From the NCBI RefSeq assembly GCF_036971445.1, contig NC_091469.1, forward strand, positions 154,070,001 to 154,134,000: a stretch of DNA of 64,000 nt, in the 5' to 3' direction. How positions within the stretch are numbered: the stretch's first letter is position 1; each line of letters opens with the position of its first letter. This stretch comes from Narcine bancroftii (Eukaryota). Under the pieces are notes generated by a model, which worked only from the letters and a program-made list of their open reading frames with translations, was not told the DNA's origin and searched no databases. Position numbers and translations under genes: made by a program. Below are positions 6,670-9,034 of this stretch, piece by piece.

Positions 6670-6772
6670 TTGATATGCGTCGTCTCTTGCCTCCGCTCTT
6701 CGACCGGGTTTTCCGTTAGCCGCGCGCAGATGAAAGTTCGTGGGTGACGGAGAGTTGGCGTCGGACAGTGAG
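6670..6772 (+). other. Probable leader (first) exon of HAUS3/POLN; start approximate
   Basis: Donor GAG|GTAAAA at 6772/6773 inside the CpG island. The HAUS3 ATG exon has an acceptor at 10225, so an upstream exon is needed. Confidence 0.45.
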
Positions 6773-9034
6773 GTAAAACCTTTAGACATGTTCAACCCTC
6801 TCACTGAGCCGCTGCCCCGACAAAACATGTAAAGGCCCGCCGAGAGACGGATTCGTCCAAATCCGGGCGGTGGGGACGCGGACTGGTCGTGGGTCCCGTG
6901 AACGGGAGCCGAGTCGCCGGAGGAGGGTCCCCCGACCGTGAACGGGAGGCCTCTTGGAGCACTTCGCGCGATTTTCTTTCCTGGTGGCCAATGAGAGCGA
7001 ACCACCCTTCATGGTGGATGGTTCGGCCAATGGGAGCTCCTCAACTGCCGGTGGTCTCAGCCAATGGGAATGTCTCTTCCTTCACGGCTGGTAACTCAGC
7101 CAATGGGAGCTCCTCACCTCGGACTGCCGGCGACTGTACCTTCGGTCCCCGGGGCACTGGGGGCGCCTCGCAACGGGCCAATCGTTCGGCAAGCTTCTGG
7201 ACCAATCAGAGCGCCTCACTCCACGCGGGCTATGTCTCGGCAATGGGAGCACCGTACCTCACCCCGCCGGCGTCTAGGACAATGGGGGTTGCCGGTGTTG
7301 CGGCTCAGCCAATGGGGGTCCCGGTTGCGGCGGCTCGGCCAATGGGGGTCCCGGTGCGGCGGCTCGGCCAATGGGGGGCCCCAGTGCGGCGGCTCGGCCA
7401 TTGGGGTCCCCGGTGCGACGGCTCGGCCGATGGGGGCCCCCGGTGCGGCGGAACTCGGCCGATGGGGGCCCCCGGTGCGGCGGCTCGGCCGATGGGGGGC
7501 CCCGGTGCGGCGGCTCGGCCGATGGGGGGCCCCGGTGCGGCGGCTCGGCCGATGGGGGGCCCCGGTGCGGCGGCTCGGCCGATGGGGGGCCCCGGTGCGA
7601 GCGGCCCTCGGCCGAATGGGGGGCCCCGGTGCGGCGGCTCGGCCGATGGGGGGGCCCCGGGTGCGGCGGCTCGGCCGATGGGGGGCCCCGGTTGCGGCGG
7701 CTCGGCCGATGGGGGGCCCCGGTGCGGCGGCTCGGCCGATGGGGGGCCCCGGTTGCGGCGGCTCGGCCGATGGGGGGGGGCCCCGGTGCGGCGGCTCGGC
7801 CGATGGGGGGGCCCCGGTGCGGCGGCTCGGCCGATGGGGGGCCCCGGTGCGGCGGCTCGGCCGATGGGGGGCCCCCGGTGCGGCGGCTCGGCCGATGGGG
7901 GGCCCCGGTGCGGCGGCCCCGGCCGATGGGGGGCCCCCGGTGCGAAGCGGCCCCGGCCGATGGGGGGGCCCCGGTGCGGCGGCCCGGCCGATGGGTGGGG
8001 CCGGTGCGGCGGCCCGGCCGAATGGGTGGGGCCGGGTGCGGCGGCCCGGCCGATGGGTGGGGCCGGTGCGGCGGCCCGGCCGATGGGTGGGGCCGGCTGC
8101 GGCGGCTCCGGCCGATGGGTGGGGCCGGTGCGGCGGCTCGGCCGATGGGTGGGGCCGGTGCGGCGGCTCGGCCGATGGGTGGGGCCGGTTGCGGCGGCTC
8201 GGCCGATGGGTGGGGCCGGTGCGGCGGCTCGGCCGATGGGTGGGGCCGGTTGCGGCGGCTCGTCAGGCTGCTGCAGCTTTTCAGCTAATGGACGCACCTC
8301 GTTCAGCTGCTAAGACAATGAACACTCTTCGAACAGCTGCTCCGGCCTCTCGACCCGTGGGCACGTCGCGCCCTGCTGCTCCCGCCTCTCGACCCGTGGG
8401 CGTGTCACGCCCTGCTGCTCCGGCCTCTCGGCCCATGGGCACATCGCGCCCTGCTGCTCCGGCCTCTCGGCCCATGAGTGCGCTTCACCCGGCTGCTCCG
8501 GCCTTTCAGACAGTGGGCACGCTTCATCCGGCTGCTCCGGCCTCCCGGCCAATAGGCACACTTCGTCCGGCTGCTCCAGCCTCTCGGCCAATGGGCACAC
8601 CTCATCAGGCTTCTGCAACTTCTCGGCCAATGGGCACACTTTACCGTCATCTTGGCCAACGGGATCGTCACACCCGGCTGCTCAGGCTTCTATGCCAATG
8701 GGTGCGCCGCCCCCGATGGCTCCTGTTGCATGGCCAGTGGGAAAGCCTCAGGTAGCTACAAGGCCAATGAATGCTTCTCACACGGCGACTCGGCCAGTGG
8801 GCACGCCTCACCCGGCTCCTGCAGTATCTCAGCCAATGGGAGTGCGTCACTTCGGCTCCTCCGACTTCTCGGCCATTGGAATGGCGCTGCCGGTGTCTGG
8901 ACCAATGGGAATGGCTCACCTGGCATTGCCAGGATCTCAGTCATTTATGGCGCTTTTTGCCGTTGCCTCAGCCAATGGGACCACCGCAACCTAATTTGCC
9001 ATTATCCTGCCCAATGGTACCCAGTTTCTATTAA
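6730..9034 (+). CDS. Putative unannotated Pro/Ala/Arg/Met/Gly-rich 'RPMG' repeat protein (frameshifted in this assembly; start uncertain)
   Basis: ORFs 6889, 7064, 7371, 8692 and 8771 each carry part of one xPMG-repeat frame ending QPMGPPQPNLPLSCPMVPSFY* at 9034. Units of 30 and 39 bp are multiples of 3, with synonymous third-position variation. Confidence 0.5.
7295..8262 (+). repeat. 30-bp GC-rich minisatellite (cggcggctcggccgatggggggccccggtg), ~32 copies
   Basis: Directly visible; encodes AAARPMGGPG, switching to AAARPMGGAG from ~7990; many 1-bp homopolymer indels. Confidence 0.95.
8335..8640 (+). repeat. 39-bp tandem repeat (8 units) encoding PAAPASRP[M/V/I]GT[S/L]R
   Basis: Unit anchors at 8351, 8390, 8429, 8468, 8507, 8546, 8585 and 8624, an exact 39-bp period. 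Confidence 0.9.

What the first reader, a model, noticed from the sequence alone, without database searches (positions are those of the whole stretch)
6730..9034. Hidden intronless 'RPMG'-repeat protein behind the HAUS3/POLN leader exon: possibly a third product of one promoter
Seen: stitching the + strand ORFs across single-base indels gives one continuous frame. It runs from an Arg-rich head (REREPS/REREAS) through diverged xPMG units (WPMR, RPMG, QPMG, GPIR, RTMG), ~32 10-aa AAARPMGGPG/AG units, eight 13-aa PAAPASRP[M/V/I]GT units and more diverged units, to QPMGPPQPNLPLSCPMVPSFY* at 9034. GC content then drops sharply, as in a 3' UTR. Unit lengths are multiples of 3. Variation falls mostly at codon third positions (Arg cga/cgg/agg, Pro ccc/cca/ccg, Gly ggc/gga/ggt/ggg) or is conservative (Met/Val/Ile), the pattern expected of protein-level selection rather than a neutral minisatellite. 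With one indel corrected, the ATG at 6730 reads MKVRGDGELASDSEVKPLDMFNPLTEPLP straight through the leader-exon donor at 6772. Inference: splicing at 6772 yields HAUS3 or POLN, while retention or read-through yields a ~750-aa disordered low-complexity protein. I do not recognise this protein.
Basis: partly seen in the sequence, partly recalled or inferred. Interest (0 to 1): 0.85.

Follow-up and report, generated by a model that had tools for sequence, protein, structure and literature searches.

The report
CCAAT minisatellite ORF inside HAUS3 intron
The first intron of the HAUS3/POLN gene holds about 60 repeats of the DNA motif CCAATGGG (read as Pro-Met-Gly); the tested third is one open reading frame once assembly errors are fixed, and the intron is likely kept in RNA, so a promoter-type repeat may have become a new protein, though no protein is shown.

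Summary
The repeats are real: about 58 units between 6985 and 9034. In 8265-9034 an independent contig shows exactly the four indels the reading needs, leaving 260 open codons to TAA 9034; the other five frames hold 2-19 stops. Another species confirms the 6772 donor spliced to HAUS3 at 10226. One contig of a probable RNA run crosses the intron's 3' half into HAUS3 unspliced. The 5' part, the central array and ATG 6730 are untested. New: 'PMG' is the translation of a CCAAT box. Tandem arrays of this box lie at 8 other loci of the genome; 6 of 7 analysed have non-triplet spacings or stops. This locus differs: no stops and 19 of 19 triplet spacings over 133 substitutions. Against a protein: it diverges between species as fast as intron (10.7% vs 6.1%), has no homolog, and the RNA looks like an NMD target or detained intron. 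Verdict: likely a young, weakly constrained low-complexity ORF grown from a CCAAT minisatellite (about 50%); a non-coding regulatory array is the close rival (about 35%).

The parts
6501..6647 (+). 38-bp promoter repeat x3.5, holding 3 copies of CTAGCAAC followed by YAACKG (RFX- and MYB-like motifs; names recalled)
   Evidence: all 3 CTAGCAAC of the + strand of the window lie here
6730..6747 (+).
6744..6772 (+). 3' end of the shared HAUS3/POLN leader exon; donor GT at 6773 (start of transcription not determined)
   Evidence: the X11 loose end at 10224 matches this stretch; shared first exon in vertebrates per PMC4591814
6773..10225 (+). HAUS3 intron 1; spliced out in organism D, crossed unspliced from 8233 on by one contig in organism A
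   Evidence: tables 7, 8
6985..7335 (+). 5' diverged xPMG / CCAAT units; 2 frame shifts needed (spacings 34 and 38), untested and possibly real
7336..8262 (+). central 30-bp array (RPMGGPGAAA / RPMGGAGAAA), 84% GC; CCAAT changed to CCGAT (synonymous) in most units; 17 of 29 units off-length, untested
8252..9034 (+). 3' part of the ORF: 260 open codons after four read-supported corrections, 20 diverged units of 30/39 bp, stop TAA 9032-9034; 20% Pro, 19% Ala, one acidic residue
9035..10225 (+). AT-rich rest of the intron, a would-be 3' UTR; no AATAAA; variant signals at 9080, 9882, 9888, 10161
10226..11170 (+). HAUS3 first coding exon (ATG 10260); internal control for assembly indels
17160..17602 (+). 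HAUS3 next exon, used in the contig-length test for splicing

Best explanation
A CCAAT-box minisatellite in the CpG island of HAUS3/POLN intron 1 has an open Pro-Met-Gly frame over its tested 260 codons and has likely become a translated, weakly constrained gene. Shown: the repeats, the open 3' frame, the spliced leader in another species, and one unspliced contig from 8233 into HAUS3. Inferred: the shared promoter makes a transcript that keeps intron 1, so ribosomes meet the repeat ORF first and HAUS3 exons become its 3' tail, while splicing at 6772 gives HAUS3 or POLN mRNA. Inferred: the product is a basic, disordered Pro/Ala/Arg/Met/Gly protein of about 590-760 aa. Selection keeps its frame and composition but not its exact residues. 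Its RPMG units would suit arginine methylation by CARM1 and multivalent binding, as in PGM-motif splicing proteins. Intron retention would also lower HAUS3 output from the same transcripts.
For: 4 of 4 needed indels in 8265-9034 appear in the X1 contig. All 10 deleted letters of that contig are listed; the 5 unlisted inserted letters are inferred to lie in HAUS3 and the intron, where frame shifts require them. 260 open codons on the sense strand; 2-19 stops in the other five frames. 19 of 19 corrected spacings are triplets. Over 133 substitutions on a minimum spanning tree there are 11 indels, all triplet, and 0 stop changes. The genome's 7 analysed CCAAT arrays show 14 non-triplet indels and 6 stop changes over 127 substitutions (4 and 5 over 108 without L020). 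Synonymous 67 vs 54 +/- 4.5 in a CpG-aware shuffle, highest in this frame. At NCG codons G>A 13 vs C>T 5, p=0.048. CCAAT is intact in 18 of 32 flank units but P-[MVILT] in 27 of 32; the other arrays keep CCAAT in 61 of 72 units. Two other species: 0 gaps in 3 of 3 X10 pieces; net +30 nt in the one X11 piece. X1-X4 hold 0.63-0.68 of the words: 0.665 is expected for 6690-11170 and 0.153 for exon 2 alone. The X1 contig runs 1020 letters past 10620; 1014-1020 is predicted if exons 2-3-4 are spliced.
Against: PMG is simply the translation of CCAATGGG, and tandem arrays of it occur at 8 other loci. Two of them (L015, L017) have no stop in the same register, and L014 keeps 12 of 13 spacings at 33 bp. 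Substitutions are not lower than in the intron: X11 10.7% vs 6.1% (HAUS3 3.8%); X10 12.2% vs 9.5%. The 16 of 25 listed X10 changes give 5 synonymous and 8 non-synonymous codons. A non-coding 39-bp control array has 71 of 74 and 72 of 80 triplet spacings and synonymous z up to 3.4, so my shuffle test is inflated by shared ancestry. The composition-aware chance of no stop is 0.13; of no frameshift across species, 0.12. The control arrays are not corrected for assembly errors. The 39/30 switch follows an internal 9-nt duplication, which needs no selection (read). No homolog in 3 word searches, 1 full HMMER scan, the Atlas or Pfam. A stop followed by spliced exons is an NMD signal, and GC-rich retained introns of mitosis and DNA-repair genes are often held in the nucleus. 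X1-X4 are only guessed to be RNA and come from one study.
Confidence: 0.5

Rival explanations
1. Non-coding CCAAT/NF-Y minisatellite in the first-intron CpG island. It tunes the shared promoter, and its GC-rich expansion slows splicing, giving a detained intron that limits HAUS3/POLN mRNA. The open frame is a by-product of a stop-poor, triplet-length unit.
For: 15 RRCCAATSR sites (NF-Y consensus recalled) in the two flanks vs 1 in 54.9 kb downstream. Same core in arrays at 8 other loci, reversed control 0, with periods of 30-38 bp. Precedents: the ABO CBF/NF-Y minisatellite and ERV-9 LTR E3 repeats (passages). GC-rich expansions induce retention. Long-lived retained introns have weak donors and GC-rich 5' ends and are enriched in mitosis and DNA-repair genes. 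Intron-like divergence. The ideal central unit has no stop in any of the 6 frames.
Against: CCAAT is lost in 14 of 32 flank units and in most central units while Pro-Met-Gly is kept. The other arrays gain stops and non-triplet indels at this divergence, and this one has none. It has about 60 units against 6-16 in the others.
Confidence: 0.35
2. The ORF is translated only as a regulatory upstream ORF: it diverts ribosomes from HAUS3 and sends intron-retaining RNA to NMD. The peptide has no function.
For: Frame kept but residues drift at intron-like rates. The stop at 9034 lies upstream of spliced HAUS3 junctions.
Against: A short uORF would do the same job; the stretch 6773-9034 holds 61 ATGs, so nothing would select for 260 or more uninterrupted codons.
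Confidence: 0.1
3. The repeats are a coding exon spliced onto HAUS3 or POLN as an N-terminal extension, through the donor-like site CAG|GTAGCT at 8752.
For: One donor-like site lies inside the ORF.
Against: No joint is listed in any of 4 runs. Read from the sequence, a phase-0 donor is out of frame with the HAUS3 ATG (10260) and with the POLN-like ATG (56085). No longer protein with these repeats was found.
Confidence: 0.03

Closest known systems
Shared first exon of HAUS3 and POLN in zebrafish, mouse and human (PMC4591814; passages read)
   Same: One CpG-island promoter, non-coding leader, HAUS3 exons inside POLN intron 1. POLN-type polymerase matches lie 280-360 kb downstream on the same strand.
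   Different: The passages read mention no repeat array, ORF or retention in the intron after the leader; 'shark' occurs 0 times in the paper.
NF-Y/CCAAT minisatellite enhancers: ABO upstream minisatellite; ERV-9/LTR12 E3 repeats (PMC2988417, PMC3730095; passages)
   Same: Tandem units, each carrying a CCAAT box in one orientation near a promoter.
   Different: Here the array is transcribed, has about 60 units, loses CCAAT in about two thirds of them and keeps one reading frame.
Retained / detained GC-rich introns (PMC7145568, PMC13561874; passages)
   Same: GC-rich 5' end, GTAAAA donor, mitosis and DNA-repair host genes, unspliced contig.
   Different: A 260-codon or longer frame kept open across diverged repeats is not described in the passages read; localisation is unknown here.
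PGM-motif proteins methylated by CARM1 (PMC4919620; passages; SmB, U1C, SF3B4 recalled)
   Same: Arg flanked by Pro, Met and Gly in low-complexity repeats.
   Different: No sequence homology found; no folded RNA-binding domain; the motif here derives from a DNA element.

Membership tests
Protein-coding gene | Uninterrupted ORF | tested here: inconclusive
Protein-coding gene | Transcribed | tested here: inconclusive
   X1 contig and X1-X4 word shares fit; RNA is a guess backed by exon arithmetic; no silent stretch laid; low-depth intron pieces also in X11, which shows a splice
Protein-coding gene | No stops or frameshifts despite divergence | tested here: met
   0 stops and 11 of 11 triplet indels over 133 substitutions; controls 6 and 14 over 127; cross-species P0 0.12
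Protein-coding gene | dN/dS clearly below 1 between species | tested here: not met
   Substitution share >= intron; 5 synonymous vs 8 non-synonymous codons among 16 of 25 listed changes
Protein-coding gene | Translated (ribosome footprints, peptides) | not testable with these tools
   no such data
NF-Y/CCAAT minisatellite | Tandem units with CCAAT in NF-Y context | tested here: met
   15 RRCCAATSR in the flanks; same core at 8 other loci
NF-Y/CCAAT minisatellite | CCAAT conserved across units | tested here: not met
   18 of 32 flank units and none in 7400-8260, vs 61 of 72 in the other arrays
NF-Y/CCAAT minisatellite | Binds NF-Y and changes transcription | not testable with these tools
   needs ChIP or reporter assay
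Detained intron | Intron kept in an otherwise spliced transcript | tested here: inconclusive
Detained intron | Nuclear localisation | not testable with these tools
   needs fractionation
PGM-motif CARM1 substrates | Pro/Gly/Met-flanked arginines | tested here: met
   RPMG units; motif definition
PGM-motif CARM1 substrates | Homology to a known substrate | tested here: not met

The most novel reading that the evidence does not exclude
A promoter-element minisatellite (tandem CCAAT boxes) has been turned into a protein gene inside an essential locus. One promoter then yields three products, HAUS3, POLN and a ~700-aa RPMG protein, chosen by whether and where intron 1 is spliced, and the repeats are caught shedding their DNA motif while keeping its translation.
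Probability: 0.4. Interest if true: 0.8.

Novelty: new variant of a known kind. Interest (0 to 1): 0.55.

Why it matters
If translated, this is a traceable case of gene birth from a transcription-factor-site minisatellite. The non-coding sister arrays in the same genome serve as controls, and the unit history is readable along the ORF. It would add a third product to the conserved HAUS3/POLN promoter and tie its expression to intron retention in a mitotic gene. If not translated, it is still a large CCAAT array and retained intron at a cell-cycle promoter, and a warning that 'PMG' repeats in noisy assemblies can be CCAAT boxes.

Tried and rejected
Homolog searches: none at threshold with the 132-aa 3' piece, the 68-aa tail or a 9-piece profile; two of the three were capped at 8000 candidates, so this is weak. 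The full HMMER scan gave 38 hits. I read the best 10, which are unrelated proteins sharing a 13-residue period; 4 of the stored proteins had 3 or more P[MVI]G and none looked orthologous. Atlas best score 0.79. Pfam: nothing over cut-off for 6 repeat pieces; one weak PCF11 repeat hit, E 0.005. Rfam: 0 matches in 6000-10400. The 3' flank DNA is single-copy in the genome search. No run is on record as RNA; this is no evidence either way. The lack of a spliced leader contig in X1 is not counted, because contigs drop minor forms. Contig depth (293) is flat and cannot rank parts. My textbook-ratio indel null (P0 0.0001-0.03) was dropped after the C5 control array showed indels are rare in such arrays. 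One 5' anchor was mis-set by 1 nt, so its 5' pN/pS values are not used; the 8x39 block gave 0.51, with 0.45 in the mirrored antisense frame. L018 was dropped from the controls because the script picked the wrong cluster (7 of 8 loci analysed). Earlier findings: nothing relevant. Paper searches for HAUS3+shark (2 hits) and HAUS3+intron retention (1 hit) gave unrelated titles (listings only); two searches gave no direct precedent in their listings. No structure was predicted: there is no alignment to fold with.

Full report
OBSERVATION. The region 6985-9034 holds about 58 units built on CGG CCA ATG GG: diverged 5' units, a 30-bp array of 31.5 copies, and 39-bp units. It lies in a CpG island (CpG o/e 0.73-1.16 from 6250 to 9034; 0.26 after the stop). 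Downstream is HAUS3. A-family polymerase matches lie 280-360 kb further on the same strand, as expected for the shared HAUS3/POLN first exon (PMC4591814, passages). As assembled, the PMG register shifts many times, but HAUS3 exon 2 is also broken, so the assembly is noisy.

READS. Eleven runs hold the stretch; none is on record as RNA. I laid 4 of the 11 on 8265-10620. The contig of X1 (same organism) spans it in one piece with 1 other letter and 18 gap letters. It lists indels at 8643, 8851, 8877 and 8954, exactly the four shifts needed. X9 repeats two and X11 one. All 10 deleted letters are listed; the 5 unlisted insertions are inferred to be those HAUS3 and the intron need (and my reading). 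Corrected, the frame runs 260 codons to TAA 9034, with 6 and 2 stops in the other sense frames and 5-19 antisense.

TRANSCRIPT. X11 (another species) carries a loose end that matches 6744-6772 joined to 10226, so the donor is real; it also has low-depth intron pieces. X1 crosses 10226 unspliced. It extends 1020 letters past 10620, and splicing of exons 2, 3 and 4 predicts 1014-1020, which suggests RNA; a genomic end there cannot be excluded. X1-X4 hold 0.63-0.68 of the sampled words, near the 0.665 modelled for 6690-11170 and far from 0.153 for exon 2 alone (a rough model with assumed 5' errors). They come from one study. So an intron-1-retaining transcript is likely; its level relative to the spliced form, its 3' end and its location are unknown.

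WHAT THE REPEAT IS. CCA ATG GG is a CCAAT box. The flanks hold 15 RRCCAATSR sites (consensus recalled) against 1 in 54.9 kb. A tandem pattern of this core gives 51 matches in the genome: 26 here and 25 at 8 other loci, with 0 for the reversed control. Of the 7 analysed, periods are 30-38 bp or variable; 5 have stops in the PMG register, 6 have stops or non-triplet spacings, and CCAAT is intact in 61 of 72 units. The PMG motif therefore has a DNA origin. Known parallels are the ABO NF-Y minisatellite and ERV-9 E3 repeats (passages).

IS IT CODING? For: 19 of 19 corrected spacings are triplets. Over 133 tree substitutions there are no stops and 11 of 11 triplet indels, where the sister arrays predict about 6 stop changes and 5-15 non-triplet indels (small counts, controls uncorrected for errors). 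Synonymous excess is 67 vs 54; CpG decay favours the synonymous side 13 to 5. CCAAT is kept in 18 of 32 flank units but P-[MVILT] in 27. Two other species show no frameshift in 571 nt (0 gaps in three pieces; net +30 in one; chance 0.12). Against: a non-coding control array reaches similar synonymous z and has few indels. The composition-aware chance of no stop is 0.13. Divergence between species is at or above the intron's (10.7% vs 6.1%, HAUS3 3.8%; 12.2% vs 9.5%). There is no homolog. The RNA has the layout of an NMD target or of a detained intron, a class rich in mitosis and DNA-repair genes (PMC7145568, PMC13561874; passages). Each test alone is weak; together they favour selection on the frame, not on residues.

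MECHANISM. Most likely (0.5): an intronic CCAAT minisatellite became a translated low-complexity ORF, expressed when intron 1 is retained. The start is open: 6730 needs at least 4 untested shifts and has weak context; 6788, 6991 and 7018 give about 740-660 aa; 7243 and 7282 have strong context (read) and give about 590 aa. The product would be basic and disordered; its RPMG units resemble PGM motifs that CARM1 methylates (PMC4919620, passages). This function is inference. Rivals: a non-coding NF-Y array with a detained intron (0.35), a regulatory uORF (0.1), or an N-terminal exon of HAUS3/POLN (0.03).

NOVELTY. The host arrangement is known. I found no description of a repeat ORF or of retention in this intron (searches; listings, plus passages of PMC4591814). 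Supplements were not read. I rate it a new variant of a known kind, interest 0.55, and 0.8 if translation is shown.

Noticed in passing
G000 C5, C8, C9, C11, C15, C16, C17 (L013-L020): A class of tandem CCAAT-box minisatellites (6-16 units, periods 30-38 bp or variable) at 8 other loci; CCAAT is kept while the rest of the unit drifts. Their host genes were not identified.
   Followed up: partly
window 6501-6647: 38-bp promoter repeat with three CTAGCAAC-GG motifs (RFX- and MYB-like, names recalled); may bear on the testis bias reported for POLN.
   Followed up: partly
window 13127-14265, 45167-45506, 45512-45938, 47719-50703: The four other large minisatellites of the window all have triplet periods (27, 30, 21, 36 bp) and most give long open frames, so array-level ORFs are common here.
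   Followed up: partly
L004 and L006 (G000 C5 near 184.74-184.75 Mb); L003/L005 (C11 near 41.01 Mb): Other 39-bp arrays. The C5 one has at least 83 copies at 77% match, few stops in two frames (3-5) and open stretches of up to 467 codons; used as a control, nature unknown.
   Followed up: partly
window 56077-56220: Candidate first coding exon of POLN (ATG 56085; resemblance to the human N-terminus recalled; no Pfam hit).
   Followed up: partly
window 9588-9657: Short dispersed repeat inside the intron; it recruits many contigs in all four laid runs.
   Followed up: no
window 400-1230 (minus strand) and 22000-25500 (plus strand): Broken Gypsy-like retrotransposon pieces (gag, RT, RNase H and integrase-like ORFs; family recalled). 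LINE remnants at 27000-29200, 39200-40900 and 61400-62800.
   Followed up: no
window 159-358: 200-base run of N.
   Followed up: no
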